Assembly (NCBI GenBank): GCA_024762935.1
Contig: JANTGK010000001.1
Span: forward strand, 6,101-70,100
Direction of reading: 5' to 3'
DNA: 64,000 nucleotides
DNA from: Candidatus Peregrinibacteria bacterium
GTDB taxonomy: Bacteria > Patescibacteriota > Gracilibacteria > CAIRYL01 > GCA-016699755
The notes under the pieces are model-generated. The model saw only the letters and a program-made list of their open reading frames with translations. It did no database searches and was not told the origin of the DNA. Below are positions 655-53,848 of this stretch, piece by piece. Within the stretch, counting starts at the first letter, position 1. Every line of letters starts with the position of its first letter. Made by a program: the position numbers and the translations under genes.

Positions 655-1521
655 TTATAAATATGGAAGAATACTATCATAATTAAATTCTGCATTATAT
701 ACTTCTAGGATATTTTCTGATGATTCTTTCGTACATCCCCTTGGAAGAAGAAGAAAATCGAGATAATTCAGTCCATGGCGCAATTTTTCTTCTGATTGTT
801 GGCTATTGAGGCTGAATTCAATATTACAAGAATCATGATCAGTGAGATAATTTGCTATAAATATTATTTCCTCTTCTGTTTTCTCCTTCCTGATTTTCGA
901 AAAGAAGTATTTTTTTTCGATTTCAGGAATAATGTAATCCAAAAAATATTTATTTTCTCGAGAAGTTATTTTTAGTTTCTTTTTTTCTATCTCATTTAGC
1001 GGGGAAAGATCTATGATGTTTGGTGGATTCCCTATATCGATACTTGGATATTTCTTGAGTGCTTCCATAAATACGGTGTCAAATTCTAGCTCATCACCAA
1101 ATGGCACAGAGACAATAATCATTTGTCCATTATGTACCCAAAATGGAAAAAATCCTTTCGATGTCACATGCATGAAAATTTCATTCCCTTTGATCATTTT
1201 TGTTTTTACTGAGACGACTGTTTGGAGGACTCTTTTCCACTCGGTTGTCGACCAGTCATTAATATTTTCAATTGTTACTCGAGGATTTTCTTCAACATTA
1301 TTTATCTTTTCTTCTTCCCTCTTTTTTGGTGTGTTATTTCGATTCTGAGATGAAGAATACGTATTTTCTAATTTTGCCATATTTTCGCGTTCCTCTCGTT
1401 GGTTTTTTTGTATGATTTTAGCTCGTGTTTCGTCTACTCCTTTTTGCAGTTTCTCTTGGATGACACAACCTGAAGTTATGAAAAGAGTCGCTATCAAGAG
1501 AAATGCTGGAACAGTTTTCAT
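655..1521 (-). CDS. hypothetical lipoprotein
   Basis: 288-aa ORF. The N-terminus MKTVPAFLLIATLFITSGC looks like a signal peptide with a lipobox Cys. No recognisable catalytic motif. Confidence 0.6.
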   Translation of the reverse strand: MKTVPAFLLIATLFITSGCVIQEKLQKGVDETRAKIIQKNQREERENMAKLENTYSSSQNRNNTPKKREEEKINNVEENPRVTIENINDWSTTEWKRVLQTVVSVKTKMIKGNEIFMHVTSKGFFPFWVHNGQMIIVSVPFGDELEFDTVFMEALKKYPSIDIGNPPNIIDLSPLNEIEKKKLKITSRENKYFLDYIIPEIEKKYFFSKIRKEKTEEEIIFIANYLTDHDSCNIEFSLNSQQSEEKLRHGLNYLDFLLLPRGCTKESSENILEVYNAEFNYDSILPYL

Positions 1522-1593: not shown

Positions 1594-2253
1594 TTATAAG
1601 CCTTTAAAAGGATTAGAATCATCTTTTGCTACGGGAATTTTTTTCCTCTTTCGACTCAAGAAGTATGCTCCAGAAGTAACAAGGACGAAGAAAAGAGCAA
1701 GTAAACCCCATATTGCTGGTCCGGTAGCAATATTTTTTAGTGATTTATCTTTATTAATTTTTTCTTCAAGTGTTGTTTTTTCTGCAGATTTTTCTGCTGC
1801 TTCACTAGAGAGTGTGATACTTTTAATGGATAAGGTGTCACCATTTCTGTGAATATAGACCGTTACCTCTTGATTAATGAGGTCATCGAGATTCTTTTTT
1901 GTATTCATTGGGATTTGTGTTGCCCCTGTATCGAGCAGGTAGTGATTCAGATTATCATCTGTATCTGACTGAGCATGAAGGAGGGTTCCGATATACGATT
2001 CTTCTGCTTGTGTATTTTTAAAATCTACTTGAGGAAAATCTTCAAGAGGACTTTCTTCTTGAGCGGACTCATGTGCTGATCCGAGTGGAGGTGGTGGTGG
2101 AGGGGGAATAGCAATTCCTCCTGTATAACTCTGTGCTTCTACTGTTCCTGCAGCTTGCATATTCTTTGGTGGAGTGGCAAATGGGTCAAAAGCCATTGCT
2201 GTATTTCCTGCAAAAAGAAGAAGTGTCATTGCAGATAAAATCATTTTTTTCAT
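1594..2253 (-). CDS. secreted proline-rich protein with C-terminal membrane anchor or sorting-signal-like tail
   Basis: 219 aa. Signal peptide MKKMILSAMTLLLFAGNTAMA, a PPPPPPP tract, and the C-terminus NIATGPAIWGLLALFFVLVTSGAYFLSRKRKK (motif, hydrophobic span, basic tail). Confidence 0.6.
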   Translation of the reverse strand: MKKMILSAMTLLLFAGNTAMAFDPFATPPKNMQAAGTVEAQSYTGGIAIPPPPPPPLGSAHESAQEESPLEDFPQVDFKNTQAEESYIGTLLHAQSDTDDNLNHYLLDTGATQIPMNTKKNLDDLINQEVTVYIHRNGDTLSIKSITLSSEAAEKSAEKTTLEEKINKDKSLKNIATGPAIWGLLALFFVLVTSGAYFLSRKRKKIPVAKDDSNPFKGL

Positions 2254-2315: not shown

Positions 2316-2423
2316 AATTACGAATCAATCAATTACGAATCGGTAAATTACGAATTACGAATGAAGAATGGAGAATGGAGAGAAGAGCTTCTAGCTATTA
2401 GCTACGAGCTTTTAGCCAATTAA
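2316..2423 (+). repeat. phased heptamer array (AATTACG/AATGAAG/AATGGAG then CTNNNAG words)
   Basis: Read in one 7-nt register: aattacg aattacg aatgaag aatggag aatggag agaagag cttctag ctattag ctacgag cttttag ccaatta. Confidence 0.8.
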
Positions 2424-5390: not shown

Positions 5391-6812
5391 ATGCCACGGA
5401 ATATTATTGAGAAAATTTGGGATCAACATATCGTCTCTTCTCAAGAGGGGGCTCCTGATATTATTTTTATTGATTTTCAACTTCTTCATGAAGTGACGAG
5501 TCCACAAGCATTTGAAACTCTTCGAAAGAGGGGGAAATCTGTTTTTTCTCCTCATCGAAATATGGCGACTGTTGATCATTCTCTTCCAACAGATCAAGAT
5601 CGAAAGAATTTTGCAGATGCATTGAATCAAAAACAAATCGATACTCTTCGTAAAAATTGTAAAGAATTTGGTATCCGTCTCTATGATGTCGATTCGGGGC
5701 ATCAAGGTATTGTACACGTCACTGGTCCAGAGTTAGGGCTGACACAACCAGGAATGACTATTGTTTGTGGTGACTCACATACTTCAACACATGGTGCCTT
5801 TGGGGCGCTTGCTTTTGGTGTGGGGACAACACAAATCTCTCATGTGTTAGAAACAAGTTGTATACTGCTTAATCGTCCAAAGACGATGCGTGTGCATTTT
5901 GTTGGAAAACCATCACAATATTTTAGAGCAAAAGATGCTATTCTTGCCCTTATACAGAAAATTGGCGTGCAGGGCGGTACTGGTTATGTCCTTGAGTATA
6001 CGGGTGAATTTATTCGGAATTGCTGCATGGAAGAGCGTATGACCATCTGTAATATGAGTATTGAGTGTGGCGCTCGAGCGGGACTGATTGCACCAGATGA
6101 AACAACATTCGCATTTTTACAAGAGACTCCTTTTGGAAAAGAAAGTCTTGAGGAGAAAAAAGTATTTTGGCAATCACTTCTTACGGAAAAAGGTGCTGTC
6201 TATGATGCAGATGTAACGCTTGATATTGATGGGATGAATCCATTTGTTACTTGGGGTACTACTCCTGCCCAATCTGTTCAAATTCATGAAAATATTCCAG
6301 AAAAAGAAGAACTTCCTGAGTCTCAACAGTCTCTCGCAGAGAAAAGTTTACAATATACGAGACTCAGTTTTGGGCAAAAAATTTCGGGTCTCCCCATAGA
6401 AAATATCTTTGTTGGAAGCTGTACGAATGCTCGTATAGGCGATCTCCGTGAAGTTGCAGCTGTTTTGAAAGGGAAAAAGGTTGCACCTGGAGTTCGAATG
6501 TTTATCGTTCCGGGAAGTGAACAAGTGGAGAAACAAGCGATTGCAGAAGGTTTGAATAAAATATTTATTCAATCAGGAGCAGAATTTCGAAGGCCAGGAT
6601 GTAGTGCTTGTCTTGCTATGAATGGAGATACTATTGCTTCTGGTGAGAGATGTGCGAGTACCTCAAATAGAAATTTTGTCGGTCGTCAAGGTCCTGGGGC
6701 TATTACTCATTTAATGAGTCCTTTTATGGCTGCAATTGCGGCTATAGAGGGAAAAATTATGAATCCAGAAGAAATTGAGGAGGAAATAAGCTCTTCTTCA
6801 CCAAGGCTCTGA
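5391..6812 (+). CDS. leuC: 3-isopropylmalate dehydratase large subunit
   Basis: 473 aa. Aconitase-family LeuC pattern (MPRNIIEKIWDQHIV, GDSHTSTHGAFGALAFGVG, GSCTNARIGDL, CSACLAMN). The stop codon lies inside a repeat module. Confidence 0.95.
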   Translation: MPRNIIEKIWDQHIVSSQEGAPDIIFIDFQLLHEVTSPQAFETLRKRGKSVFSPHRNMATVDHSLPTDQDRKNFADALNQKQIDTLRKNCKEFGIRLYDVDSGHQGIVHVTGPELGLTQPGMTIVCGDSHTSTHGAFGALAFGVGTTQISHVLETSCILLNRPKTMRVHFVGKPSQYFRAKDAILALIQKIGVQGGTGYVLEYTGEFIRNCCMEERMTICNMSIECGARAGLIAPDETTFAFLQETPFGKESLEEKKVFWQSLLTEKGAVYDADVTLDIDGMNPFVTWGTTPAQSVQIHENIPEKEELPESQQSLAEKSLQYTRLSFGQKISGLPIENIFVGSCTNARIGDLREVAAVLKGKKVAPGVRMFIVPGSEQVEKQAIAEGLNKIFIQSGAEFRRPGCSACLAMNGDTIASGERCASTSNRNFVGRQGPGAITHLMSPFMAAIAAIEGKIMNPEEIEEEISSSSPRL

Positions 6813-7081
6813 AGGGCAGGCAGGGAACATAGAACAGGGAACACGGAGCAAGGAGCAGGGAATAAGGAACACGGAGCAAGGAGCAGGGAATAAGGAACAC
6901 GGAACAGGGGTAGGAGAGAGGTAAGAGAAGTGAATAGAGAATGTTGAATATAGAATATAGAAGGAGGGAATTTTTAATTTTTAATGTTAAATTTTTAAAT
7001 AAGTCTCAATTTTTAATATTATAAAGGAGGAAAGCTGTAAGGTGACAAAGTGACAAAGCTGCAGAGGTGCAAAGTGAAGAG
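6791..7081 (+). repeat. mosaic short-tandem-repeat spacer: 37-nt module, 12 GGARCAN heptamers, further phased heptamers, then GTNRCARA octamers
   Basis: 6824-6907 reads ggaacat agaacag ggaacac ggagcaa ggagcag ggaataa ggaacac ggagcaa ggagcag ggaataa ggaacac ggaacag. There is an exact 28-nt tandem duplication (6838-6865 = 6866-6893). The same 7-nt register continues to about 6998. Octamers gctgtaag gtgacaaa gtgacaaa gctgcaga ggtgcaaa gtgaagag occupy 7034-7081. Confidence 0.85.
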
Positions 7082-7179
7082 GAAATATCGAATGTGAAAA
7101 AGAGAATAGGGAACCAAAAACTTCTTTTTATTGCGAAAATCGAGTCAATCGTTACTCTTGCAATAGGTTTTGTTTTTTT

Positions 7180-8250
7180 ATGAAAAAATATTTTCTCTTT
7201 CTTTTTGCTCTCATTATGGTTACTGGTGGATGTCGTTTTTCTGCAGGGCCATCGAATCCCGATATACAGTCAGAACTTTCTCAAGAGCAGAAGGAAAAAC
7301 TTGAAACAGCATATTTTTCTGGTGGATGTTTTTGGTGTAGTGAATCTGATTTTGAGAAACACTCTGGAATTTTTGAAGTCATTTCTGGATACATTGGGGA
7401 AACAGAAAAAAATGTTACATATGAAAGAGTATCTGCTGGCAAGACAAAACTGAAGGAAGGGGTAAAAGTATTATATAATCCTGAGGAAATCACATATGAT
7501 GATCTGTTAGAAATATTCTGGAAGCATATTGACCCTACTGATAATGGAGGTCAGTTTGCAGATCGTGGACTGCAGTATAGAACTGCTATTTTTTATCAAA
7601 CTCAGGAGCAAAAAAATCGTGCAGAGCAATCGAGAAAAATTCTTGAGGAGTCTGAAAAATTCGATGAACCAATTGCGACAAGTATTCTTCCATTTTCCAC
7701 TTTTTATCCAGCGGAAAACTATCATCAAGATTATTACAAAAAGAATCCACAAGAGTATGAGAGGTATAGAGAGGGGTCTGGTCGTAATGAATTTATTCAA
7801 AATTCTTGGAAAACAGATCCTTTTCAGTCCAGCAGTGATCTCCGAAAACGTTTGACACCGCTTCAATACCAGGTCACACAAAAAAATGCTACAGAGCAGC
7901 CTTTTCAAAATGAATATTGGGATAATACGAGGGAAGGAATTTATGTAGATATTGTCTCGGGAGAACCCCTTTTTAGTTCAAAGGACAAATTTAAATCTGG
8001 TACCGGATGGCCGAGCTTTACAAAACCGATTGATACAAAGTCTGTCACTCAGGTGCAGGATAAGAATTTAGGGATGACTCGGACAGAAGTTCGAAGTGTG
8101 AATGGAGACTCACATCTCGGACACATATTTTCTGATGGGCCGGAACCAACAGGGCAACGTTACTGTATTAATTCAGCTTCCTTACGATTTATTCCTGTTT
8201 CTCAGATGGAGACAGAAGGGTATGGAGAGTTTCTTCCTTTGTTTGAATAG
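7180..8250 (+). CDS. msrAB: fused peptide-methionine sulfoxide reductase MsrA-MsrB, exported lipoprotein form
   Basis: 356 aa. Signal/lipobox [18 protein letters not shown], MsrA active site GGCFWC, and MsrB C-terminal motif [11 protein letters not shown]. Confidence 0.95.
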
Positions 8251-8254
8251 AATT

Positions 8255-8479
8255 ATTGCAAAGATACAGAGTTACAAGGAACAGGGAACATGGAACAGGG
8301 AACAAGGATTGTGGAACCCTTCTTTGCCAAGGTTCCGAAGGGCAGGGCGGGAACAATAAACAATATCCAATTACGAATTCGTCAATTACGAATTACGAAT
8401 GAAGCAGGTTGCAAAGTGATAAAGTGACGAAGTAACAAAGTTACAGAATGACAAAGTTGTAGGGGTACCAGGTGAGAGA
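8255..8479 (+). repeat. mosaic short-tandem-repeat spacer (octamers, GAACAGG heptamers, 37-nt module, AATTACG heptamers, nine GTNRCARA octamers)
   Basis: 8279-8404 reads in one 7-nt register (gaacagg gaacatg gaacagg gaacaag ... aattacg aattacg aatgaag). 8408-8479 reads gttgcaaa gtgataaa gtgacgaa gtaacaaa gttacaga atgacaaa gttgtagg ggtaccag gtgagaga. Confidence 0.85.
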
Positions 8480-8595
8480 AGAAGAAGAGGGAATTGTGAA
8501 ATGAGATACACGGAGGGCAAACACAAGGTGTTCCTGTTGGGGCTTGCAAAGTTGCTTCTAAAAAGGAAATAATCTTATGAATTCTCATATATTCT

Positions 8596-9168
8596 ATGCT
8601 CTTTGAACCGTTTACATCTCGTGCGATTCGTATTCCACGAAAAGATATTGATACCGATATTATTATTCCAGCGAAATACTTAAAGGGAACCGATACTTCT
8701 GGCCTAGCTGATGGGTGTTTTGCAGAACTGAAAAAAGACGCTCAGTTTCCAATGAACCGGCCTGAATTTAAGGCAGCAAAAATTATTATTGCTGGACCTA
8801 ATTTTGGATGTGGGTCAAGTCGAGAACATGCTCCTTGGGCACTTGTTCAATCGGGAATTCGGGCAATTATCTCTTCAGAATTTGCTGATATTTTTCGGGG
8901 TAATGCAGAAAAAAATGGACTTCTTACCCTTCAAATTCCTGAGACAGAAGTACAAGAACTCTTCGAGATGGATGAACTTGCAGAAATTACCATTGACCTT
9001 CCCGAACAAAAAATTATCACTGAGCAGAAGCAATATGCCTTTCAGATTTCACAGTTTTCCAAAATGAGGTTTATTGAAGGACTCTCTGATATCGATTACC
9101 TATCAAAATTTTCTGAGAAAATTTTAGATTTTGAAAAACAAAGATGTGCTCTTTTGCCACGAATATAA
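8596..9168 (+). CDS. leuD: 3-isopropylmalate dehydratase small subunit
   Basis: 190 aa. The LeuD pattern includes GPNFGCGSSREHAPWAL. Confidence 0.9.
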   Translation: MLFEPFTSRAIRIPRKDIDTDIIIPAKYLKGTDTSGLADGCFAELKKDAQFPMNRPEFKAAKIIIAGPNFGCGSSREHAPWALVQSGIRAIISSEFADIFRGNAEKNGLLTLQIPETEVQELFEMDELAEITIDLPEQKIITEQKQYAFQISQFSKMRFIEGLSDIDYLSKFSEKILDFEKQRCALLPRI

Positions 9169-12167: not shown

Positions 12168-12944
12168 GTGTTTATGAAATATATCTCTTTTTACACGCTT
12201 GCTCTTGGAAGTATTTTTTTCATTTTTTCAGCATCTTGCAGTGCAAGAGCATATGTATCCCCAACACTTGAGATTCAGAAATGTAAAAAGATTCCGAATC
12301 GAGAAGATCGAAATCATTGTTTAAAAAAATTTTATTCACGAGGAAATCAAGAGCAGTCTGTAGAGGGTGTACAGGGGAGTACATCTTCATTTAAATCGTG
12401 TCGACGGATAGGAAACAGAAAATCAAGAGCCCTCTGTTATGCTCAGTTTCATCAAGAGCTTATTGACTCAAATAGGCAAAAAAATGTTCATTCAGAGACT
12501 TCTTCATCGAAAAAATCCAATCTTTTTCTCAAGATTATTCCTTGCGAAAAAAAGAAAAATCGTAGTGAGCGTATTGCTTGCTATAATGATTTTCACAAAG
12601 AGCAACTTTTAAAAAAGAGAAAACAGAAAGAAGAAAAAATGCAGGAGAGTGAGAAGAAAAAGATTTCTTCTTCGCCAACATTACAGATTTTGGTCTGTAA
12701 AAAAATGTCTGACAGAAAAGAGAGGAGTGCATGTTATCAAGAAATACGATTACAAAATAAGGAATCCAAGCAGCAGAGATATAGCATGGAAAAACAAAAT
12801 TTTAATCATAATGATGAGATGAAGGCATGTTTAAAAATTCAAAATGAAAAACGTCAGAAGAAATGTTTTGACGAACTTGCAAAAATTGAAAAAAGACTTT
12901 TTTATGATCAGGACTCTACGTTTCAACCACAAGACAGTCGGTAG
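12168..12944 (+). CDS. secreted lysine-rich protein with five Cx11C repeats
   Basis: 258 aa. Signal peptide MFMKYISFYTLALGSIFFIFSASCSA. Repeats are CKKIPNREDRNHC, CRRIGNRKSRALC, CEKKKNRSERIAC, CKKMSDRKERSAC and CLKIQNEKRQKKC. Confidence 0.7.
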   Translation: MFMKYISFYTLALGSIFFIFSASCSARAYVSPTLEIQKCKKIPNREDRNHCLKKFYSRGNQEQSVEGVQGSTSSFKSCRRIGNRKSRALCYAQFHQELIDSNRQKNVHSETSSSKKSNLFLKIIPCEKKKNRSERIACYNDFHKEQLLKKRKQKEEKMQESEKKKISSSPTLQILVCKKMSDRKERSACYQEIRLQNKESKQQRYSMEKQNFNHNDEMKACLKIQNEKRQKKCFDELAKIEKRLFYDQDSTFQPQDSR

Positions 12945-12948
12945 ATGA

Positions 12949-13025
12949 GGAACACGGAATCCTTCTTCGCCAAGGCTCCGAAGGGTAGGGAGGGAACAGG
13001 GAGAAAGAATTACAAATTACAGATT
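12949..13025 (+). repeat. phased heptamer spacer containing the 37-nt module
   Basis: Reads ggaacac ggaatcc ttcttcg ccaaggc tccgaag ggtaggg agggaac agggaga aagaatt acaaatt acagatt. The module is at 12961-12997. Confidence 0.8.
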
Positions 13026-13100
13026 TTCTCTATTGCTTTTCTTCTTCTTGAGGGGGATGGAAAAAAAATATACAATGGATAAGATTTTTTTCTTAACCCT

Positions 13101-13517
13101 ATGAAAGTTGCTTCAAGAGCTATTATTATTCATGATGGAAAAATTCTTCTTGTTCGACATAAAGGTCGAGATTTCTATGCTCTTCCTGGTGGAAAAGTAG
13201 ATGCAGAGGAAGATATTCGTTCTGCAATGGTAAGAGAAATAAAAGAAGAACTCAATCGTGACGCACAGGTTGGGAATCTCGTTTTTGTACATGAATTTCG
13301 GTATAAGGAAGGTTCACACAGTCTTGAATTTTTCTTTCTCATTGAGAATGGTGAAGATTTTGTTGGGGAATTAAATGGTACACATACAGAAATCGAGCTT
13401 GCTGAAATAAAATGGATCCCTCTTTCCGAGGTAAAAAATTTAAAACCAAGTTTCTTAATCGATAAAATACAAACGCTCTCTGCCAATTCACCAATAGAGT
13501 ACTATTCTACTGCATAA
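13101..13517 (+). CDS. NUDIX hydrolase
   Basis: 138 aa. Nudix box GGKVDAEEDIRSAMVREIKEELN. Confidence 0.85.
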   Translation: MKVASRAIIIHDGKILLVRHKGRDFYALPGGKVDAEEDIRSAMVREIKEELNRDAQVGNLVFVHEFRYKEGSHSLEFFFLIENGEDFVGELNGTHTEIELAEIKWIPLSEVKNLKPSFLIDKIQTLSANSPIEYYSTA

Positions 13518-13528
13518 AGTATTAGCCT

Positions 13529-14395
13529 TTATGATCTGCGTTCCATAAAGTCGGTGACATCAATTTGGGAGATATCTTGATGCGCAAGGGGTCCTTTTTT
13601 AAATTGGGGAACTTGCTCCTCATATGTTGGGAGTTCTTCTTGAAAGATGATTCCAGTAGGAATCTTTTCTTGTGGGGTGTTACAAAAGGTAATTGCCTCA
13701 CTTCGTGATGAGCAAATGGGGGCAGTCAAATCATTTTTATCGATATTTTTGTTATAAAAGTCGTATGTTTCTTGTTTATTAAATGTGACACAAGGCTGCA
13801 AAATATCGACAAAGGCGGCTCCATTATGATTCATGGCCTGTTTCATAATTTCTGTTAGTCCTGGTGCATCTGCTGAGTATGCACGAGCGACAAATGTAGC
13901 TCCCATTTGAAGAGCAAGTGATGCACCGTTCACATAATCTTCTATAGATCCAAAGGGAGTAGAACTTGTTTTTGTTCCTTTTTTTGCTGTGGGAGAGGTT
14001 TGACCCTTTGTCAGTCCATAAACACCATTGTTATCACATATAACCATTACGTCGAGGTTCCGACGGAAAAAATGAACAAAGTGTCCCATTCCAATACCAA
14101 GCCCATCGCCATCACCGACATTTACAATGATATTATTTTTGTGATTTGCTATTTTTGATCCGGTGGCAAATGGAATAGCGCGTCCATGAAGAGTGCATGA
14201 ACCATAGGTATTTATCCAGTATGGCAGGAGCGATCCACACCCAATTCCGGAAACAACCAATGTTTCATCGGGATCAGCATTGATTTCTACTAATGCTTTT
14301 TTTAATGCAGTCAGTATTCCAAAGTCCCCACAACCAGGGCACCACGAAGGAATAGCTTTTGTACTGTAGTCTTTTACGGTTCTCTCTGTGTTCAT
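13529..14395 (-). CDS. korB: 2-oxoacid:ferredoxin oxidoreductase beta subunit (TPP-binding)
   Basis: Motifs SWCPGCGDFGIL and GDGDGLGIG. The start is moved to ATG 14395 (MNTERTV), which overlaps the upstream stop as ATGA. Confidence 0.9.
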   Translation of the reverse strand: MNTERTVKDYSTKAIPSWCPGCGDFGILTALKKALVEINADPDETLVVSGIGCGSLLPYWINTYGSCTLHGRAIPFATGSKIANHKNNIIVNVGDGDGLGIGMGHFVHFFRRNLDVMVICDNNGVYGLTKGQTSPTAKKGTKTSSTPFGSIEDYVNGASLALQMGATFVARAYSADAPGLTEIMKQAMNHNGAAFVDILQPCVTFNKQETYDFYNKNIDKNDLTAPICSSRSEAITFCNTPQEKIPTGIIFQEELPTYEEQVPQFKKGPLAHQDISQIDVTDFMERRS

Positions 14396-16131
14396 AATTT
14401 TGACAAATATTTTTCTATTTCCTGAGCAATCCATTCTCCAGTCATTGGTCGACCATAGTAACTTCTAATAGAGTAATCAGGCGTTATTCCTGTAAACTCG
14501 GTCAATACTCCCTCAAGTTGTCCAGACTGATTCCCTTCGACCATAATGAGATTTTCTCTATCTTTTAGTATTTCCTGTACAGCATCTGTTTTGAAAGGAA
14601 GGATATATTGCATTTGAATGACCTCTATGTCGAATCCTTTTTTCTGAAGAATATTCTGTGCTTCTAAAGTTGGATTTTTTGTCCCTCCCCAGATCATTAC
14701 TTTATTTTTTGATGATCCAAAAACTTTCGGATCTGGAAGTTCTTTTTCTAATGTTTTTATTTTTCGCCAGCGTTTTTCCATCATTACTTTCACTTCTGGT
14801 GTCTCCTCAACTGGTTTTCCATGTTCGTCATGTTCATAACTCGTTGATGTATATCGACCTCCTTTCATGCCTGGCACAGAACGAGGAGAGATACCATCAG
14901 GTGTGTCTTTATATCGCATAAAATTTCCATCAAGTTCTGAGGGGGGAGCGATTTTTCCTCTATCGATATTGATGTTTTTTGTAATATCAAATTCACAGGT
15001 TCTGTATTGGTCAGCAATATATTTTTCGGTAAGGAATATTACTGGAAGCTGATACTTTTCTGCATAATTAAAGGCTTCTCCTGTGAGATCTACACAGTCT
15101 TGGTGATCACCAGCGGCGATGACAAGCCGAGGAAAATCGCCTTGTCCACAGTGCATAGCCATACGAAGATCTCCTTGCCCCGTTCTTGTTGGTAATCCAG
15201 TGCTTGGACCAGGTCGTTGTGCATCAAAAATGACTACAGGGGCTTCGATTTGACCAGCAAGGCTCACTGCTTCACCCATGAGCGCAAAACCACCTCCACT
15301 GGTTCCTGTGGCTGCTCGAATTCCAGAATGACCAGCACCAATGGCCATATTGACTGCAGATATTTCGTCTTCTGCATGAACAACAACAATGTCATAGTTT
15401 TGTGATTCTTTTGCGAGTGTTGTGAGGATAGTGCTTCCTGGGGTCATGGGGTATGCTGATAGGAATTTTAGCCCAGATCGTATACACCCAAGAGCAATAG
15501 CTTCATTTCCCCCCATAAGAAACCGTTTTTTTTCGTCCCCTTTGAGTTGATTTGAAATCTGGTGGGTAACATTTTCTTTTACATAATCATACCCTGCCTG
15601 TAGAGCACGATGGTTTATTTCTACAACTTCTTTCCCTTTCCGAGTAAAAATTGTTTCGAGAACTGTTTTCATTTGTTCAGGACTCTGACCTATTATGGCA
15701 AAAACAGCACCAACTCCAACAACATTTGCTGCGAGTGAAAGCCCTGACTCTTTCGCCATTCGAGCAATAGGAACATGAATCATTTCTACTGTCTCGGGGA
15801 TATCAATATCATCAATGTTTATCTTTTCTCCATCATAAATAATGGCACCACCTTCGTCGATTTCAGTGCAGTGTTGCTGAACTGAGTTTTTATCCATTGC
15901 TATCATCAGATCATAATGATTTTGATGTGAGAGTATTTCTGTATTTCCAACATGAACAGAGGCGAAGCTGTGTCCGCCACGAATTATATTTTGATATTCA
16001 CTTGTTGTTATAGCAAAGAGTCCTTCACGCGTTAAGGCGAGAGCAAGAGAATGAGTAATAGACTCAATTCCTGTTCCTGCGGGTCCACCAGCTAATATAT
16101 GAATCTTATTTTTTACAGTTTTGGGTGTCAT
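14392..16131 (-). CDS. korA: 2-oxoacid:ferredoxin oxidoreductase alpha subunit (fused gamma-alpha type)
   Basis: The N-terminal gamma-like domain (ILAGGPAGTGIES) is followed by the alpha domain (FLSAYPMTPGS). The start is moved to MTPKTV at 16131 because the longer ORF would overlap the pfkB-family gene. Confidence 0.9.
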   Translation of the reverse strand: MTPKTVKNKIHILAGGPAGTGIESITHSLALALTREGLFAITTSEYQNIIRGGHSFASVHVGNTEILSHQNHYDLMIAMDKNSVQQHCTEIDEGGAIIYDGEKINIDDIDIPETVEMIHVPIARMAKESGLSLAANVVGVGAVFAIIGQSPEQMKTVLETIFTRKGKEVVEINHRALQAGYDYVKENVTHQISNQLKGDEKKRFLMGGNEAIALGCIRSGLKFLSAYPMTPGSTILTTLAKESQNYDIVVVHAEDEISAVNMAIGAGHSGIRAATGTSGGGFALMGEAVSLAGQIEAPVVIFDAQRPGPSTGLPTRTGQGDLRMAMHCGQGDFPRLVIAAGDHQDCVDLTGEAFNYAEKYQLPVIFLTEKYIADQYRTCEFDITKNINIDRGKIAPPSELDGNFMRYKDTPDGISPRSVPGMKGGRYTSTSYEHDEHGKPVEETPEVKVMMEKRWRKIKTLEKELPDPKVFGSSKNKVMIWGGTKNPTLEAQNILQKKGFDIEVIQMQYILPFKTDAVQEILKDRENLIMVEGNQSGQLEGVLTEFTGITPDYSIRSYYGRPMTGEWIAQEIEKYLSKL

Positions 16132-22410: not shown

Positions 22411-23199
22411 TTAAATCGTGGGGATAGAATTATCGATTTCTTCTTCTTTTTCTGATTGTTGAAGTGGTACCCCGCGTTCATCCTCATGGTCATAAATCGA
22501 ACCACGTCGTGAAATACCCTGTAGTGATTCTTTAATGCATTCCTTCAGATGGTTAGGGTCAAGCAGGAGGCATCTTTGCACCTGTTTTCGGAAGTGTATT
22601 TGTCCCTCCAAATTATTCTTTTTTTCCACCTCTTTTTTCTGCACTCCTTCCTCCTGCACTTCCTTTTTTTTCTGATTCATTTCTCCTGTACTTTTTTGTT
22701 GCCAGTTTTTATCCGACACGTTGTTTCGAAATGAGAGTTTCAGACATTCTCTAAATTTTTCTATAGAATGAGTTGTTCTATGACATTGCTTGAGTATTTC
22801 TCTTTTTTGTTGTCTTTTTTCTTCATTCATAATTTTTTGTTCTTCTGAGTTGGTGATTTTAAAATGATACATTTTTGGTTTCTTTTCTTTTTTCATGAAT
22901 GCATTTGCTCTTTCTCCAAATTCAATAAAGTTCTCTGAATCATGAGAGAAAGAGGTATTAATATTTTTTTTGTCATGAGTTTTGTATTGATGTTTGTATA
23001 CTCCTTCTTCTTGATTGTGTGAGTGAGTATTTTTTCTTTCTTTTGCAAATTCCTCTTTCTTTTGTACAAGTGAAGCCAAATGTTTATCTGGCTTGATTTC
23101 GGAGGTCAATTGAAAAAAGGAGAGTGATGCAAAGGCGAGTGAAAATCCAATGGCAACACCGATGAATCCTATAGACAGTTTTTTTTTGTCTTCTTCCAT
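22411..23199 (-). CDS. membrane-anchored K/E-rich hypothetical protein with paired-Cys motifs
   Basis: 262 aa. N-terminal TM span (LSIGFIGVAIGFSLAFASLSFF) and motifs CHRTTHSIEKFREC and CLLLDPNHLKEC, which resemble the repeats of the 12168-12944 protein. Confidence 0.6.
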   Translation of the reverse strand: MEEDKKKLSIGFIGVAIGFSLAFASLSFFQLTSEIKPDKHLASLVQKKEEFAKERKNTHSHNQEEGVYKHQYKTHDKKNINTSFSHDSENFIEFGERANAFMKKEKKPKMYHFKITNSEEQKIMNEEKRQQKREILKQCHRTTHSIEKFRECLKLSFRNNVSDKNWQQKSTGEMNQKKKEVQEEGVQKKEVEKKNNLEGQIHFRKQVQRCLLLDPNHLKECIKESLQGISRRGSIYDHEDERGVPLQQSEKEEEIDNSIPTI

Positions 23200-27198: not shown

Positions 27199-27221
27199 GT
27201 TCTTAAAATCTAATATATTGT

Positions 27222-27321
27222 GACAGAACATGGAACAGGGAACAAGGAGTGGAAGAAGTTGCAAAGCTGCAGAGTGACAAAGATACAGAGTGGGGGGATG
27301 AAGAGGTACAAGAGTGAGCTT
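27222..27321 (+). repeat. heptamer plus octamer spacer
   Basis: Reads gacagaa catggaa cagggaa caaggag, then gttgcaaa gctgcaga gtgacaaa gatacaga gtgggggg atgaagag gtacaaga gtgagctt (27258-27321). Confidence 0.8.
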
Positions 27322-37599: not shown

Positions 37600-40590
37600 T
37601 TATGTTTCGGAATAAATACTCCATTTTGAAGATAGAGTACTTCCGAGCATATGATACGGGATATCCTCTGCAAGAATCAATCCATCACGGGAAATATTAA
37701 TAAACATTTTCTGTTTTGGGTCTACAAGTCCTGATATTGACCATTCTTTATAAAATGCGTCAGTAAAGGAAATCATGTTGCCTTTCATCTTCATGGGAAT
37801 ATCTTTGAATTTATTTGGAATGTCGGTTGAATCTCCCTTTATTCCTGATTGAGTGAAGAGCCCACGTAATTCTTTTCGCGCCTCTTCTTCTTCTGTGAAT
37901 TCTTCGTATACTTCATGAACGATGTCTTCAAGATCTTCTAAGGAGTTACCTATAATTGATTTATCAATATTTAGGAATTGTAGATGGGAAATATTTTTTG
38001 TTTTTGTGTTCAACACAAAAGATATTGCATCAGATGTAAATGCATTTGGGTGTGCCTTTTTTATTAAAACTTCATTCTCTGAGAGCATAGAGATATCCGG
38101 AAGAGTTGTAGAGAACCCCTTGTTTGCGAGTTCTGCTAATGTAAGTCTCCTTGTGACATCTATGACAAGTGGATCAATTCCAGCAAGGGGGTCTTCTTCT
38201 GTAATTTGCCATGTTTCTTGTAATTGTTGTGTTACTTCTTCTAGTGTGGATGATTTTGTAAGTGCTCGTTCTTTGCGTATAGAGCGTACAGCATCATTGA
38301 GATCAGCGAGGAGGATTTCATCAGGAATCACCAGTTTTTCATTTCTGATTTCTATATTTCGAATAACTTTTTCTACTGGAAGGTATTCTGCCTGGAATAT
38401 GGTTCCATCAGGCATTTTTGCTTCAGTAATTTCTACTGTTCGTGCTTTATCATCATCGTCTCCAAGCATAGATATAATAATAAGTTTTTCTTGAGAGAAA
38501 TCTTCAAGGATTCTTTCTGTAAGACTCATATCGTCGTAAGGGTCAATCTCTTCGGGTTGTTGGACTGATTGTTCTTCCATAAAGAGTAACTGTGCTTCAT
38601 GGATTTGTTTTATTTTATTTTCTGCCTCTATTTTTTTTGCAATGAGTCCTTGAAATTTTTCTTCTGACATGATTCCTTGTTCTCGATAGATATCATTTTT
38701 TGTCTGAAGGGTTTCTTGCTTATCCTTGAGTATTTGGTATGAGGCGAAGAGTTTTGCGTTTGGTTTTGTCTCCAGAAAAAGATTGTTTACTCCTAGAACT
38801 TCTTCTACTCGATTAAAATTTGATTTTTGAAGGAAGTTTTCGGCCGTTTCAAGATTTCGTTCAATAATTTCTAATCCTGTAATCATTTTTTTCTCTTCCT
38901 CATCTTCCCATTGGAGTGCGAGTTTATCTAAATTTGTGGCAGCACTAAAAATGGTGTGTGTGATTTGGTTCATATTTTTTCGCATGAGGTCTGCAATGAT
39001 CTCTCGATATATTTCTAATAATTTTTTATTCTCTTTTGTTCGTTTTTCCGATTCCCAATTTTTAACTATCTCATTGGCTACTTCATCTGCAAGTGTTACC
39101 TCACGTTTTTTGAGAGAGTCTTCTAAGAGGGAAAGAAGGGTCTGTGCTATATGGATATCGATATCCCTCATTCCGTTTCTTTTTTTTGCCTCTGTAATAA
39201 TGTGACTTATGTTTCGAATGACTCGTGTATCAGGTGGTGTTATATTTGCTAGATAGAGGGAGGAGTCTATGACATCATCGGGAGCCTCTTTCGTAGTGAT
39301 GCCGTAAGCGTTATTAATAAATATATATTCGTCAATAAAGGCTGATTTTCGTTTCTCTTGCTCCTGCTGAAAATTATTCTGTATTTTTTTTGGGAAAAAG
39401 GTAAGGTGTTCTTTGAGTGATGTCATTATTCCATTGCCTTCGAGGTGAAGTTTTTTATGAGTTGTTGCTGATTCATATTGACTCGTAATAAGTCTATTAT
39501 CAAAAAGAATATTTTCTTTGACCCATTGATTTTCTTCTGCTGATTTGAGATGGAGTTCTTTTTTTAACTTTGAGAAATGGAGATTTGGAAGTGTGGAAGG
39601 AATTCCCCCTATAGAGAATGTTATTTCTCTCTTTGGTGGCACTGCCATAAGAGTTTTTTCTGGATTCTTTAGGGACCAAATCTTCCCAAATAGAGGGTGT
39701 CTATACGCTGAAACGGTAATCTTATTGTTATCTCGAGAAAATTCTGCTGATGTTCCCCTCGGGTAGAAGGTAGCATTTTCATACCTGATTTCACTTCGTT
39801 CCTGTGAATATACCCATATATCTCCTGCTGTATGTGTAATAATCGGGAAAGGTTGTATTTGTTCAATTTTTATCTCCGCCCCTTCTTCCATGCGAATCAT
39901 CGAAGAATCAAAAAAGGTTATTTCTGCCCTTCCTTCTCTGACCTTGATGCGTTCTCCTCCAAATATTGCTTGGGTATGAGAAACGAGAAAGGTTTCATTT
40001 GAGACAAGGGTTATGGCAGTTTTTTTATTGGATTTTATTGAATTTGGAAGGTGTCCCCACTGCATATCTTTTTTCTCTGATGCGGAATAAATAGTCAGGA
40101 AGATGAGAGAGATTCCAATGATAATAGATATGATGATGTGAATTATTCTTCGTAGGTTTCCACTTCCCTTATCGTCTGATCCTTGCATTGAAAATTCATT
40201 TTCAGGCTTATGATTAGCATTTTGGTTTTGTGAATCTTCAAGAATATTTTGCAGGGTTTGGAGAGTTTCTGTTTCATCTGATGATTCTCTTTCTTGTTTG
40301 TCTTCAAGTCCTAAAATTTGGTTCTCAGAAAGATTCCCTAATTTGGAAGCAATACTTGATTCTGATTGTGTAGCAATCTCATTGTTTTCTGTCTGTATTG
40401 AGATTCCTTCACTTTTAGCAGGGGAGTCCTCTGTCTGGGGTGACTGAGGGGTATTTGACAATATTTCTTTAGATTCATTTGGTACGGGCGAAAAATCGGG
40501 TTGAGTGTTTTTAGTCTTTATTCTTTCACTTGTATTTTTATTATTTGTATTATTCCCCCCTTTTGCCGAATTATTGGTTGAATATTCCAT
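37600..40590 (-). CDS. large membrane-anchored hypothetical protein
   Basis: 996 aa. Low-complexity N/S/Q/E-rich N-terminus, one TM span (IIHIIISIIIGISLIFLTIY), a FecR-like beta segment (GRAEITFFDSSMIRMEEGAEIKI), then a long helical region. Confidence 0.7.
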   Translation of the reverse strand: MEYSTNNSAKGGNNTNNKNTSERIKTKNTQPDFSPVPNESKEILSNTPQSPQTEDSPAKSEGISIQTENNEIATQSESSIASKLGNLSENQILGLEDKQERESSDETETLQTLQNILEDSQNQNANHKPENEFSMQGSDDKGSGNLRRIIHIIISIIIGISLIFLTIYSASEKKDMQWGHLPNSIKSNKKTAITLVSNETFLVSHTQAIFGGERIKVREGRAEITFFDSSMIRMEEGAEIKIEQIQPFPIITHTAGDIWVYSQERSEIRYENATFYPRGTSAEFSRDNNKITVSAYRHPLFGKIWSLKNPEKTLMAVPPKREITFSIGGIPSTLPNLHFSKLKKELHLKSAEENQWVKENILFDNRLITSQYESATTHKKLHLEGNGIMTSLKEHLTFFPKKIQNNFQQEQEKRKSAFIDEYIFINNAYGITTKEAPDDVIDSSLYLANITPPDTRVIRNISHIITEAKKRNGMRDIDIHIAQTLLSLLEDSLKKREVTLADEVANEIVKNWESEKRTKENKKLLEIYREIIADLMRKNMNQITHTIFSAATNLDKLALQWEDEEEKKMITGLEIIERNLETAENFLQKSNFNRVEEVLGVNNLFLETKPNAKLFASYQILKDKQETLQTKNDIYREQGIMSEEKFQGLIAKKIEAENKIKQIHEAQLLFMEEQSVQQPEEIDPYDDMSLTERILEDFSQEKLIIISMLGDDDDKARTVEITEAKMPDGTIFQAEYLPVEKVIRNIEIRNEKLVIPDEILLADLNDAVRSIRKERALTKSSTLEEVTQQLQETWQITEEDPLAGIDPLVIDVTRRLTLAELANKGFSTTLPDISMLSENEVLIKKAHPNAFTSDAISFVLNTKTKNISHLQFLNIDKSIIGNSLEDLEDIVHEVYEEFTEEEEARKELRGLFTQSGIKGDSTDIPNKFKDIPMKMKGNMISFTDAFYKEWSISGLVDPKQKMFINISRDGLILAEDIPYHMLGSTLSSKWSIYSET

Positions 40591-53760: not shown

Positions 53761-53848
53761 GTTGCAAAGGGACAAGGCTCCAAGGATGCGGAGCCCCAAA
53801 GGTGCAAAGCTTCAAAGATGCAAAGGTATAGGGTTATAAAGTTGCAAA
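53761..53848 (+). repeat. array of eleven phased octamers (GNTNCAAA words)
   Basis: Reads gttgcaaa gggacaag gctccaag gatgcgga gccccaaa ggtgcaaa gcttcaaa gatgcaaa ggtatagg gttataaa gttgcaaa. The last units overlap the stop and final codons of the minus-strand GT1 gene. Confidence 0.85.

What the first reader, a model, noticed from the sequence alone, without database searches (positions are those of the whole stretch)
6824..7081. Intergenic spacers built from phased 7-nt and 8-nt short tandem repeat words (STRR-like mosaic)
Read in a fixed register, 6824-6907 is 12 consecutive GGARCAN heptamers. It includes an exact 28-nt (4-unit) tandem duplication (6838-6865 = 6866-6893). The same 7-nt register continues through NNNGAAT and TTTTTAA words to about 6998, and the period then switches to 8 nt (gtgacaaa gtgacaaa gctgcaga ggtgcaaa) at 7034-7081. 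The same word families recur at 2316-2423, 8255-8479, 12949-13025, 27222-27321 and 53761-53848, so whole spacers rather than short patches are made this way. Heptameric STRR arrays are known from heterocystous cyanobacteria. This is otherwise a small, AT-rich, housekeeping locus, and mixing 7-mer and 8-mer families in fixed module order is not something I can assign to a described element. Candidate roles are slippage-prone contingency DNA, protein or RNA binding arrays, or structured 3' UTRs.
Basis: partly seen in the sequence, partly recalled or inferred. Interest (0 to 1): 0.7.

Follow-up and report, generated by a model that had tools for sequence, protein, structure and literature searches.

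The report
Mosaic heptad/octad repeat spacers, Peregrinibacteria
Six gaps between housekeeping genes of an uncultured Peregrinibacteria-like bacterium are filled with real, strictly phased 7- and 8-base repeat words wrapped around a small GC-rich motif; this is a new variant of the "short tandem repeat" spacers known from cyanobacteria, and its words also turn up in unrelated viruses.

Summary
6824-6907 is 12 phased GGARCAN heptads that include an exact 28-nt repeat. The 7-nt period runs on to about 6998, and octads follow at 7034-7081. Lag-7 excess in this spacer is z=9.9. The same word families fill five other spacers. Independent assemblies reproduce the arrays, so they are not artefacts.

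It overwrites the leuC stop codon. It recurs almost unchanged in MAGs of many phyla, sometimes in-frame in genes, and in one MAG inside other heptad arrays.

The host is a Candidatus Peregrinibacteria relative. Close syntenic relatives lack arrays at these positions, yet more distant relatives carry the same words (AATTACA, CAAAG octads) elsewhere.

Units have invariant cores and one wobble position (p=3e-6). Spacers share multi-unit blocks in one module order. All arrays read purine-rich on the G-rich strand, whatever the gene direction.

Best reading: a STRR/BIME-like dispersed mosaic repeat that grows by slippage and is copied at the DNA level. Its word cores probably act as recognition sites. 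It is not structured RNA and not a classic contingency locus. I rate it a new variant of a known kind, with function unresolved.

The parts
6793..6820 (+). Core motif copy 1 (CTTCTTCACCAAGGCTCTGAAGGGCAGG). It supplies the last 7 codons (SSSSPRL) and the TGA stop (6810-6812) of leuC.
   Evidence: The LeuC C-terminus is about 8 aa longer than in relatives.
6824..6907 (+). 12 phased GGARCAN heptads. They include a 28-nt (4-unit) higher-order repeat at 6838-6903 (2.4 copies, 100% identity).
   Evidence: Substitutions concentrate at unit position 7.
6908..6928 (+). Three degenerate purine-rich heptads (GGGTAGG AGAGAGG TAAGAGA) that bridge the word families.
6929..6998 (+). NNNGAAT x5, then GAGGGAA, then TTTTTAA-type heptads x4, all in the same 7-nt period.
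7034..7081 (+). Octad array (GCTGTAAG GTGACAAA GTGACAAA GCTGCAGA GGTGCAAA GTGAAGAG). In the CAAAG+NNN register it has a conserved CAAAG and three variable bases.
7082..7110 (+). Purine-rich tail (GAAATATCGAATGTGAAAAAGAGAATAGG) that ends the mosaic about 70 nt before msrAB.
   Evidence: family D1 member 7071-7114.
2316..2423 (+). Spacer A mosaic: an AATTACG block, then AATGAAG/AATGGAG, then AGCTNNN x5. It lies between two minus-strand genes, so it is antisense to them.
   Evidence: A 37-nt block is 92% identical to 8368-8404 (family D4).
8257..8520 (+). Spacer C mosaic, in order: octads, GGAACAN x4-5 (8278-8312), core copy 2 (8319-8346), GGGAACA, an AATTACG block (8368-8404), CAAAG octads (8409-8469), and a purine-rich tail.
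   Evidence: Spanned 100% identically by Logan unitigs.
12946..13026 (+). Spacer D mosaic: GGAACAC GGAAT, core copy 3 (12962-12989), GGGAACA GGGAGAA, AATTACA x2, then ATTTTCTCT. It starts at the stop codon of the upstream gene.
   Evidence: It resembles the post-FtsJ arrays of relatives L323/L325.
27217..27321 (+). Spacer E mosaic in the divergent lepA/exonuclease promoter region: AGAACAT GGAACAG GGAACAA, then seven CAAAG/CAGAG octads.
   Evidence: 31 nt are 87% identical to an octad array in a 66% GC viral contig.
53761..53848 (+). Spacer F: 11 octads (GTTGCAAA ... GTTGCAAA) with a core-like remnant (ACAAGGCTCCAAGGA). It overlaps the stop codon of the minus-strand glycosyltransferase gene and lies upstream of rplA.

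Best explanation
The spacer is one copy of a lineage-amplified, dispersed mosaic repeat family in a Candidatus Peregrinibacteria-like genome. Each copy is built from a roughly 28-nt GC-rich core embedded in degenerate, phase-locked arrays. The arrays are heptads (GGAACA+N, AATTAC+R, NNN+GAAT, AGCT+NNN, TTTTTAA) and octads (CAAAG+NNN), in a preferred order: GGAACAN, core, GGAACAN, AATTACG, AATGRAG, octads, purine-rich tail.

Shown:
- The arrays are real and fill the unconstrained DNA between a stop codon and the next promoter.
- They share multi-unit blocks between loci.
- They are all in one orientation on the G-rich strand.
- They are absent from the same spacers of syntenic relatives.
- They contain a recent exact 4-unit duplication.

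Inferred:
- Arrays expand and contract by replication slippage or unequal exchange of blocks of 1-4 units.
- Blocks, sometimes with the core, are copied between spacers by a DNA-level process tied to strand or replication direction. This resembles REP/BIME or cyanobacterial STRR/SDR behaviour. It is not an RNA-level function or a gene-specific regulatory function.
- The invariant word cores with one free position, and the persistence of the same words across deep divergence, are most simply explained if the cores are recognition words.
For: - Periodicity and exact repeat.
- Independent unitigs from three runs are identical through the arrays.
- Shared blocks: 2330-2366 vs 8368-8404 are 92% identical over 37 nt, including irregular units. 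The GGAACAN and octad families recur across spacers, always as direct copies and never inverted.
- Colinear module order.
- Core: 3 copies against 0 expected by chance. Two copies are embedded in GGAACAN arrays. Copy 1 overwrites the leuC 3' end.
- Orientation: 6 of 6 arrays are purine-rich on the + strand with flanking genes ++, ++, ++, -+, --, --. The + strand has GC skew +0.07 throughout the window.
- Lineage specificity: the syntenic relatives L018-L021, and L323/L325, have no arrays in the orthologous spacers. There are none in 16-22 kb of L453 (LepA 88% identical) or of L455.
- Word persistence: L323/L325 carry AATTACA/AATGACA heptads directly after the FtsJ stop codon. That array is the only alignable intergenic segment between the two genomes, whose proteins are 60-78% identical. 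L327 has CAAAG octads.
- Position-specific constraint: in the GGAACAN family, non-majority counts by position are [2,0,0,2,1,0,10], chi-square p=3e-6. Adjacent units never share base 7 (0 of 16).
- The same architecture occurs in a deltaproteobacterial MAG: the core sits inside GAATGCG heptads, followed by AGCTCAA and GAATGGA words and a purine-rich tail.
- Precedents: heptads are the commonest long SSR class in prokaryotes, and cross-phylum TAACTGA arrays are known (PMC4679880). Geobacter has hepta- and octanucleotide arrays (PMC2700814).
Against: - No transposase, RAYT, reverse transcriptase or RHH gene is present in the 64-kb window, and no copying enzyme is identified.
- The core's predicted hairpin is no more stable than shuffles.
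- The three cores are direct copies, not inverted doublets as in REPINs.
- The orientation result rests on six arrays in one replichore, plus a few loci with weak skew.
- Slippage alone does not explain why unrelated viral contigs use the same words.
- Retention of an array at an orthologous site hints at selection and therefore at a function that I cannot name.
- Copy-number variation between strains could not be examined.
Confidence: 0.45

Rival explanations
1. The arrays are functional binding platforms. Each 7- or 8-bp unit holds one protomer of an oligomerising DNA-binding protein, as RHH proteins omega, ParG and MetJ do on heptads, 8-bp boxes and metboxes. Alternatively, each unit is read on the transcript by a ring-shaped RNA-binding protein. 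In either case the arrays would act in nucleoid organisation, insulation or regulation of the flanking genes.
For: - Invariant 4-6-nt word cores with free positions at a fixed period.
- At least 4 contiguous units, as omega requires (PMC9499535). [quoted passage not shown]
- The heptad array is the only conserved intergenic segment between L323 and L325.
- The same words are enriched 7-13 fold over composition-matched scrambles in viral contigs of 24-67% GC.
- Arrays with a CAAAG core and variable NNN are widespread.
Against: - At least five different word families in one spacer would need several proteins.
- No RHH or other candidate gene lies next to any array in the window.
- No protein family recurs near AATTACG arrays in 64 viral loci.
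- The words do not match WATCACW.
- Syntenic relatives do without arrays at the same genes.
- An RNA-level reading is contradicted by the two arrays that are antisense to their genes, and by the lack of predicted structure.
Confidence: 0.28
2. The arrays are products of purely local replication slippage. Each arose independently in its own spacer from a seed word, with no dispersal and no function, as ordinary long simple-sequence repeats do.
For: An exact 28-nt tandem duplication is present. Heptads are the commonest long SSR unit in prokaryotes, which has been attributed to polymerase slippage (Mrazek 2007 as summarised in PMC4679880). Arbitrary scrambled heptads also form arrays in viral contigs, at 5-9 loci each.
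Against: - Different spacers share the same five or six word families, multi-unit blocks with irregular units and junctions (92% over 37 nt), and the same module order.
- Substitutions are not spread evenly over unit positions (p=3e-6).
- The words are shared with relatives at non-orthologous sites and with unrelated genomes.
Confidence: 0.1
3. A sequence-specific enzyme writes the repeats. Candidates are a telomerase-like or reverse-transcriptase activity copying a short template, or a strand-specific HUH nuclease/transposase acting on the core hairpin. It would add a templated 6-mer plus one untemplated base per cycle at replication-associated breaks near gene ends.
For: - One hypervariable position per unit, with adjacent units never identical.
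- A single strand orientation.
- The same words in genomes of very different GC content.
- Arrays begin at or inside stop codons.
Against: No candidate enzyme lies in the window or next to the viral arrays. Many word families would need many templates. There is no precedent in bacteria.
Confidence: 0.1
4. Assembly or sequencing artefact: collapsed or chimeric low-complexity joins.
For: Short-read unitigs break at 6867/6874 and at 2445.
Against: Unitigs from three separate runs are 100% identical to the window through the arrays at 6874-7110, 8255-8520 and 12945-13030. The one break is exactly where a true 28-nt tandem repeat loops a k=31 graph.
Confidence: 0.02

Closest known systems
Cyanobacterial STRR (short tandemly repeated repetitive) heptanucleotide sequences, and prokaryotic long simple-sequence repeats generally
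   Same: Tandem 7-nt units that are intergenic, occur at many loci per genome, combine several word families, often side by side, and have no known function. AATTACG arrays also occur in a provirus-like contig that carries the cyanobacterial HIP1 octamer GCGATCGC (L172).
   Different: The host is a Peregrinibacteria (CPR) relative. The words differ from the classical STRR consensus (from memory). Units are systematically imperfect, with a conserved core plus a wobble position. Octads are mixed in. A GC-rich core is embedded.
TAACTGA intergenic heptamer repeats of Beggiatoaceae, Cyanobacteria and Bacteroidetes (MacGregor 2015, PMC4679880)
   Same: One heptamer word forms intergenic arrays in phylogenetically distant genomes, which suggests horizontal spread or a shared factor. 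The function is unknown, and binding sites for a regulator have been proposed.
   Different: There a single word is used, mostly 2-6 copies placed just upstream of start codons. Here several words and two periods fill whole spacers that start at stop codons.
REP / BIME / REPIN elements of Proteobacteria, and small dispersed repeats (SDR) nested in heptamer arrays of Nostocaceae (Elhai 2008; not readable here, cited from memory and via PMC3116915 and PMC5861425)
   Same: A small GC-rich, partly palindromic unit is combined with other short motifs in a mosaic of preferred order. It is dispersed in intergenic DNA and specific to a lineage. The core sits inside heptamer arrays. REP-heptad-REP arrangements occur in viral loci L162, L196 and L197.
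   Different: No RAYT was found. The cores are single direct copies, not inverted doublets. The hairpin is weak. The same core sequence occurs across phyla and in-frame inside genes, which is more like Rickettsia palindromic elements (from memory).
Heptad and octad operator/centromere arrays bound by ribbon-helix-helix proteins: pSM19035 omega with 7-10 x WATCACW (PMC9499535); TP228 ParG at parH with tetramer boxes and AT-rich spacers (PMC3130281)
   Same: Contiguous 7- or 8-bp units with a conserved core and degenerate positions. At least four units are needed, and direct repeats work. This is the best mechanistic model for how such arrays could be read.
   Different: The word sequences differ. 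No cognate RHH or par genes are adjacent. The arrays here are longer, combine many word families, and are scattered among chromosomal housekeeping genes.
Geobacter metallireducens multicopy hepta- and octanucleotide arrays (PMC2700814)
   Same: Both 7-nt and 8-nt tandem families (for example GTTGCTYN x4 and MTYCTGA x5) are dispersed at tens of loci in one genome and are interpreted as global regulator sites.
   Different: There the arrays are short (3-5 units), often form paired sites on opposite strands, and are GC-rich. No mosaic of families within one spacer is described.

Membership tests
STRR (cyanobacterial short tandemly repeated repetitive sequences) | Tandem heptanucleotide units in non-coding DNA at many dispersed loci | tested here: met
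   period-7 arrays in 6 of 33 spacers of the window.
STRR (cyanobacterial short tandemly repeated repetitive sequences) | Occurrence in heterocystous cyanobacteria with the canonical STRR word families | tested here: not met
   Best named relatives of LeuC and LepA are Candidatus Peregrinibacteria / Patescibacteria. The words are GGAACAN, AATTACG and others. The canonical STRR consensus sequences are recalled from memory only.
Long simple-sequence repeats (Mrazek 2007 sense) | A run of a 5-11-nt unit longer than expected from genome composition | tested here: met
   TRF scores 73-132. Lag-7 z=9.9 in this spacer.
Phase-variable contingency locus | A perfect repeat tract inside an ORF or promoter spacer of a surface or variable gene, with copy number differing between strains | tested here: not met
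   Units are imperfect, and adjacent units are never identical. Flanking genes are leuC, msrAB, leuD, a NUDIX gene, lepA and rplA. Strain variation was not testable: the only other data are three runs with identical sequence.
REP / BIME / REPIN | An imperfect palindrome of 20-40 nt able to form a stable hairpin | tested here: inconclusive
   The core can pair CCTTC...GAAGG (5-8 bp), but its minimum free energy is not better than shuffles (z=0.2 to 1.3).
REP / BIME / REPIN | Inverted doublets (REPIN), and a cognate RAYT transposase in the genome | tested here: not met
   All three cores are direct copies on the + strand. No Y1 transposase is among the window's roughly 55 genes. The rest of the genome was not available.
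REP / BIME / REPIN | A mosaic of the palindromic unit with other short conserved motifs in a preferred order, strictly extragenic | tested here: inconclusive
   Module order is colinear in five spacers. However, core copy 1 and spacer F overlap gene ends, and in other phyla the core lies in-frame in genes.
SDR (small dispersed repeats of Nostocaceae) | A very small dispersed unit nested inside tandem heptamer arrays | tested here: met
   The core lies within GGAACAN arrays at 8319-8346 and 12962-12989. It lies within GAATGCG arrays in L013 and L014.
SDR (small dispersed repeats of Nostocaceae) | Sequence relationship to SDR1-SDR6, and restriction to Nostocaceae | not tested
   The Elhai 2008 paper is not held. 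The host here is not a cyanobacterium.
Omega-type RHH heptad operator/centromere | At least 4 contiguous 7-bp repeats | tested here: met
   12 contiguous GGARCAN units. The requirement is taken from PMC9499535.
Omega-type RHH heptad operator/centromere | Consensus WATCACW, overlap with promoters of par or copy-control genes, and an adjacent RHH gene | tested here: not met
   The words differ. The neighbours are housekeeping genes with no RHH or ParA hit.
Omega-type RHH heptad operator/centromere | Cooperative binding of one protein dimer per unit | not testable with these tools
   Needs EMSA, footprinting or DAP-seq.

The most novel reading that the evidence does not exclude
The heptad/octad words and the GC-rich core may belong to a cross-phylum 'repeat grammar' that is written or propagated by an unrecognised, strand-oriented, sequence-specific DNA process, or read by an unrecognised, very widespread factor.

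This would explain three things. The same words (AATTACG, GGAACAG, CAAAG-NNN) and the same core appear in Peregrinibacteria, in a deltaproteobacterial MAG, in other CPR, in Verrucomicrobia, and in viral contigs from 24 to 69% GC. Units have one free position. Arrays keep a single orientation on the G-rich strand.

If so, the Peregrinibacteria spacers would be an unusually rich display of a new class of ultra-small self-propagating DNA, rather than ordinary slippage products.
Probability: 0.15. Interest if true: 0.85.

Novelty: new variant of a known kind. Interest (0 to 1): 0.55.

Why it matters
Tandem heptanucleotide arrays have been known in cyanobacteria since 1990 and in other bacteria since the 2000s, but nobody knows what makes or reads them.

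This locus shows the phenomenon in a small-genome candidate-phylum bacterium, in an informative form:
- several word families with invariant cores and one wobble base;
- two periods, 7 and 8 nt;
- a fixed module order;
- a single strand orientation;
- an embedded core motif that is nearly identical across phyla.

Together with the finding that the same words are over-represented as arrays in unrelated viral contigs, this gives concrete, testable handles on an old open question. Those handles are defined words for binding assays, orientation versus replichore, and gain and loss among close relatives.

There is also a practical consequence. These arrays break short-read assemblies of such genomes and can extend or truncate annotated genes, as seen at the leuC and glycosyltransferase 3' ends.

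Tried and rejected
- **Rfam**: at gathering threshold over the whole window, and at E<=1 over 6700-8650, it found only one tRNA. No known RNA family matches.
- **RNA folding**: neither the cores nor whole spacers fold better than shuffles. Structured RNA is rejected.
- **Promoter/terminator scan**: nothing above the shuffled expectation.
- **Genome-contig scan with the 20-nt core**: 14 hits against about 9 expected by chance. It did not find the source organism, but 12 of the 14 hits share extended flanks and so revealed the cross-phylum motif.
- **Metagenome-contig scan with GAAGGGYAGGNNGGGAACA**: the pattern was too weak, and nearly all 120 loci are chance matches. Only L095 and L074 were informative. 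That scan was wasted.
- **Core against viral contigs and plasmids**: no hit, or chance-level hits only.
- **KOPS-like idea** (the core ends in GGGNAGGG): the + / - counts are 5 to 1, and the array words are not strand-skewed outside the arrays. This is too weak to pursue.
- **Linked enzyme or binding protein**: Pfam on all the window's genes and clustering of 1,356 ORFs near viral AATTACG arrays gave nothing recurrent.
- **Strain comparison of copy number**: the only other assemblies with identical proteins are Logan unitigs from one run series. They are identical to the window or broken at the repeat.
- **Literature**: no paper holds the string AATTACGAATTACG, and no paper links Peregrinibacteria with intergenic tandem repeats. 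Elhai 2008 could not be read.
Full report

Yes. Read in a fixed register from 6824, the sequence is GGAACAT AGAACAG GGAACAC GGAGCAA GGAGCAG GGAATAA GGAACAC GGAGCAA GGAGCAG GGAATAA GGAACAC GGAACAG. Tandem Repeats Finder reports period 7 x12.7 at 6821-6909. It also reports a 28-nt higher-order unit at 6838-6903 with 2.4 copies at 100% identity, so 6838-6865 = 6866-6893 is exact.

The 7-nt period continues without an indel to 6998. It passes through three weak units, five NNNGAAT units and four TTTTTAA-type units. Octads follow at 7034-7081.

Lag-7 self-identity in this spacer is 0.51 (z=9.9 against shuffles). Over all intergenic DNA of the window, lag 7 has z=7.2 and lag 8 has z=3.2, whereas coding DNA shows only the 3-nt period.

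**2. Is it an artefact?**

No. Logan unitigs from three separate runs (SRR19843165-7) match the window exactly. One set ends at 6867 and another starts at 6874, which is where a true 28-nt tandem repeat makes a k=31 graph loop. An 18.6-kb unitig then runs 100% identical through the rest of this array and across the arrays at 8255-8520 and 12945-13030. Only the copy number of the 28-nt unit remains unverified.

**3. Host and gene context**

The window is 37.6% GC. It encodes about 55 housekeeping genes, including a class II aaRS, CorA, LeuC/LeuD/LeuA, MsrAB, LepA, FtsA/FtsZ, L1, L19, CTP synthase and shikimate-pathway enzymes. It encodes no transposase, reverse transcriptase or ribbon-helix-helix protein.

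LeuC and LepA place the organism among Candidatus Peregrinibacteria / Patescibacteria. The nearest named LepA is 80% identical, and the nearest overall is 88% identical.

**4.

A roughly 28-nt GC-rich motif, CTTCTTCGCCAAGGCTCCGAAGGGCAGG, sits at 6793-6820, 8319-8346 and 12962-12989. That is three copies against zero expected by chance.

Copies 2 and 3 lie inside GGAACAN arrays. Copy 1 supplies the last seven codons (SSSSPRL) and the stop codon of leuC, whose product is about 8 residues longer than those of its relatives. Spacer F holds a degenerate remnant of the core and overlaps the stop codon of the glycosyltransferase gene.

A scan of 185,579 species genomes with a 20-nt version of the motif gave 14 hits, against about 9 expected by chance. 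Twelve of the 14 share extended flanks (CCCTnCTTCG...GGCAGGC). They come from Verrucomicrobia, Kaiserbacteria, Doudnabacteria, Saccharibacteria, Babeliales, a Pseudomonadota MAG and a deltaproteobacterial MAG.
- In several genomes the motif is in-frame in proteins, reading LLRQGSEGQA. One example is at the N-terminus of a leucyl-tRNA-synthetase-like gene.
- Variant copies occur in the same loci.
- In the deltaproteobacterial MAG (L013, L014) the core sits inside a GAATGCG heptad array directly after a stop codon. AGCTCAA and GAATGGA words and a purine-rich tail follow it. This is the same architecture as in the window.

The core can form a short stem, but its predicted folding is no better than that of shuffles.

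**5. Anatomy of the family**

The six spacers use the same word families in a colinear order: [octads] - GGAACAN - core - GGAACAN - AATTACG/AATTACA - AATGRAG - [AGCTNNN] - CAAAG-NNN octads - purine-rich tail. Each spacer carries a subset of these modules.

The spacers share more than words. 2330-2366 and 8368-8404 are 92% identical over 37 nt, including irregular units and the junction into AATGAAG. No inverted copy exists.

Units have an invariant core and a free position. In 17 independent GGAACAN units, non-majority bases by position number [2,0,0,2,1,0,10] (chi-square p=3e-6). No two adjacent units share the seventh base (0 of 16). Octads conserve CAAAG and vary the other three bases.

The arrays fill the gap from the stop codon, or from just inside the gene, to about 70 nt before the next start.

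**6. Orientation**

All six arrays and all three cores read purine-rich on the + strand. The flanking genes are ++, ++, ++, -+, -- and --. The + strand has GC skew +0.07 in every 8-kb bin. Outside the arrays the words themselves are not strand-skewed.

In other genomes the core-forward strand is the G-rich strand in 10 of 12 loci. The arrays of relatives L323, L325 and L327 also lie on the slightly G-rich strand.

This argues for a DNA-level, strand-tied process and against a sense-RNA function. The sample is small.

**7. Evolution among relatives**

- A syntenic relative with LeuC 73% identical (CorA-LeuC-LeuD-PKD-AhpC; four strains, L018-L021) has no arrays in 21 kb.
- Relatives with the same LeuC-MsrAB-LeuD order (L323, L325) have no arrays in those spacers.
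- The closest relative by LepA (88%, L453) and a complete Peregrinibacteria genome (L455) show none in 16-22 kb.

The arrays at these positions are therefore gains in the window's lineage.

The words, however, are old. L323 and L325 carry GAACAGGGA-AATTACA-AATGACA... heptads directly after the FtsJ stop codon, ending in ATTTTCTCT like the window's spacer D. L327 has CAAAG octads upstream of leuC.

Between L323 and L325, whose proteins are 60-78% identical, that heptad array is the only alignable stretch among four orthologous spacers. This hints at constraint or homogenisation.

**8. The same words elsewhere**

In 2.9 million viral contigs:
- (AATTACG)x3 occurs in 64 loci whose GC ranges from 24 to 67%. 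Two composition-matched scrambles occur in 9 and 5 loci.
- (GGAACAN)x4 occurs in at least 100 loci, of which 94 are GGAACAG. A scramble occurs in 8 loci.
- CAAAG-NNN x4 occurs in at least 120 loci of 25-69% GC. In 46 of 129 arrays the NNN varies, as it does in the window. No control could be run for this octad pattern.

AATTACG arrays in viral contigs are mostly intergenic. They often start at the stop codon, sit beside other heptads (AATTAGG, GAACACT/GAACACG, AATCACG) or between REP-like hairpins, and lie on the G-rich strand in 47 of 63 de-duplicated cases. No protein family recurs beside them.

GGAACAG arrays in viral contigs lie inside replication-initiation protein genes, next to iteron-like repeats.

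One 66% GC viral octad array matches window spacer E at 87% over 31 nt, including the GAAGAAGT flank.

No paper in the library holds the tandem AATTACG string.

**9. Interpretation**

The best-supported reading is a dispersed mosaic repeat family of the STRR/LSSR and REP/BIME type. Arrays grow by slippage or unequal exchange, as the exact 4-unit duplication shows. Blocks are copied among spacers in one strand orientation, and the family has recently amplified in this lineage.

The invariant cores, the wobble position, the persistence of the words and the cross-taxon enrichment are not explained by slippage alone. They suggest that the cores are recognition words. It could instead be whatever machinery propagates the repeats.

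Three readings are rejected:
- Structured RNA. There is no Rfam hit, folding is no better than shuffles, and two arrays are antisense to their genes.
- A classic contingency locus. The units are imperfect and the genes are housekeeping.
- An assembly artefact.

The function itself is unresolved.

**10. Relation to known systems and novelty**

Heptanucleotide arrays are established in cyanobacteria as STRR. Mrazek 2007 found them to be the commonest long SSR class in prokaryotes (via PMC4679880). Cross-phylum TAACTGA arrays are described in PMC4679880. Geobacter metallireducens has both hepta- and octanucleotide multicopy arrays (PMC2700814).

The following appear to be new relative to what I could find:
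- the host group;
- the multi-family, two-period mosaic with a fixed order;
- the core-plus-wobble unit design;
- the embedded core shared across phyla;
- the overlap of its words with arrays in unrelated viral contigs.

I therefore class it as a new variant of a known kind, of moderate interest. There is a smaller chance that it exposes a general, still unrecognised mechanism.

Noticed in passing
L001-L014 (genome contigs); window 6793-6820, 8319-8346, 12962-12989: A roughly 30-nt GC-rich motif (CCCTnCTTCGCCAAGGCTCCGAAGGGCAGGC) is almost identical in MAGs of Verrucomicrobia, several CPR phyla, Babeliales, Pseudomonadota and a deltaproteobacterium. It is often in-frame in proteins, reading LLRQGSEGQA (for example aaRS genes in L009 and L011). 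Variant copies occur in the same loci (L005, L009). All hits are MAGs.
   Followed up: partly
L206-L305, e.g. L221:8245-9102, L226:661-1494: (GGAACAG)x4-14 is conserved at the DNA level inside phage replication-initiation protein genes (phrog_16167/1408/2149), in contigs of 46-72% GC. It encodes EQGTGNREQGTGN between the N- and C-terminal domains and lies just downstream of iteron-like repeats (CTCACTGAGGA...). This layout is like a lambdoid origin placed inside the initiator gene.
   Followed up: partly
L142-L205: (AATTACG)n arrays occur in viral contigs of 24-67% GC, including giant-virus MAG bins (L145, L173). They are about 7-13 times commoner than two scrambled controls. In some phages direct and inverted AATTACG arrays face each other and would form long intergenic hairpins (L151, L163, L176).
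   Followed up: partly
L162, L196, L197: AATTACG heptads are sandwiched between two REP-like hairpins (CCGTAGGGTGGATnnnnCCGCGCATCCAC) in provirus contigs of about 57-62% GC. This is a BIME-like REP-heptad-REP arrangement.
   Followed up: no
L328-L447, e.g. L333, L344, L350, L356: CAAAG+NNN octad arrays, some with the NNN changing stepwise along the array, are common in viral contigs of 25-69% GC. L333 (66% GC) matches window 27252-27282 at 87% over 31 nt.
   Followed up: partly
L095:1240-1520 (minus strand): A CPR-like WecB/TagA-type glycosyltransferase gene carries in-frame hairpin-repeat insertions. One is a core variant (CCCCTTCGTCCGCCGATTCGGCGGACTTCGGAAGGGCAGGCAGGGAACAGTGAACAG) that runs straight into GGAACAG-type heptads.
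   Followed up: no
window 5391-6812; window 53834-53848: Repeat insertions reshape gene ends. The last 7 residues and the stop codon of LeuC come from the core motif. The last octads of spacer F encode the C-terminal residues and stop codon of the minus-strand glycosyltransferase.
   Followed up: yes
L018-L021 (about 12600-15700): Four strains of the syntenic relative differ in the LeuD-PKD spacer and in the length of the PKD-domain protein (737, 632, 737 and 673 aa). One strain (L020) has an ISL3 transposase inserted upstream of CorA.
   Followed up: no
window 22629-22693: A 32-nt tandem duplication (CCTCTTTTTTCTGCACTCATTCCTCCTGCACTT, 2 copies, 81% identity) lies inside the unannotated minus-strand ORF 22411-23199.
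   Followed up: no
window 37600-40590 (-), 655-1521 (-), 1594-2253 (-), 12168-12944 (+): Four sizeable ORFs, including one of 996 aa, have no Pfam hit.
   Followed up: no
L325:15120-15190: About 100 nt downstream of the AATTACA array, a relative carries a longer core-like variant (CCTTTCGGCAAGCTCCCCTCGACCATGCTCGGGGCAGGCAGGG). This suggests a family of related GC-rich cores that share the GGGCAGGCAGGG end.
   Followed up: no
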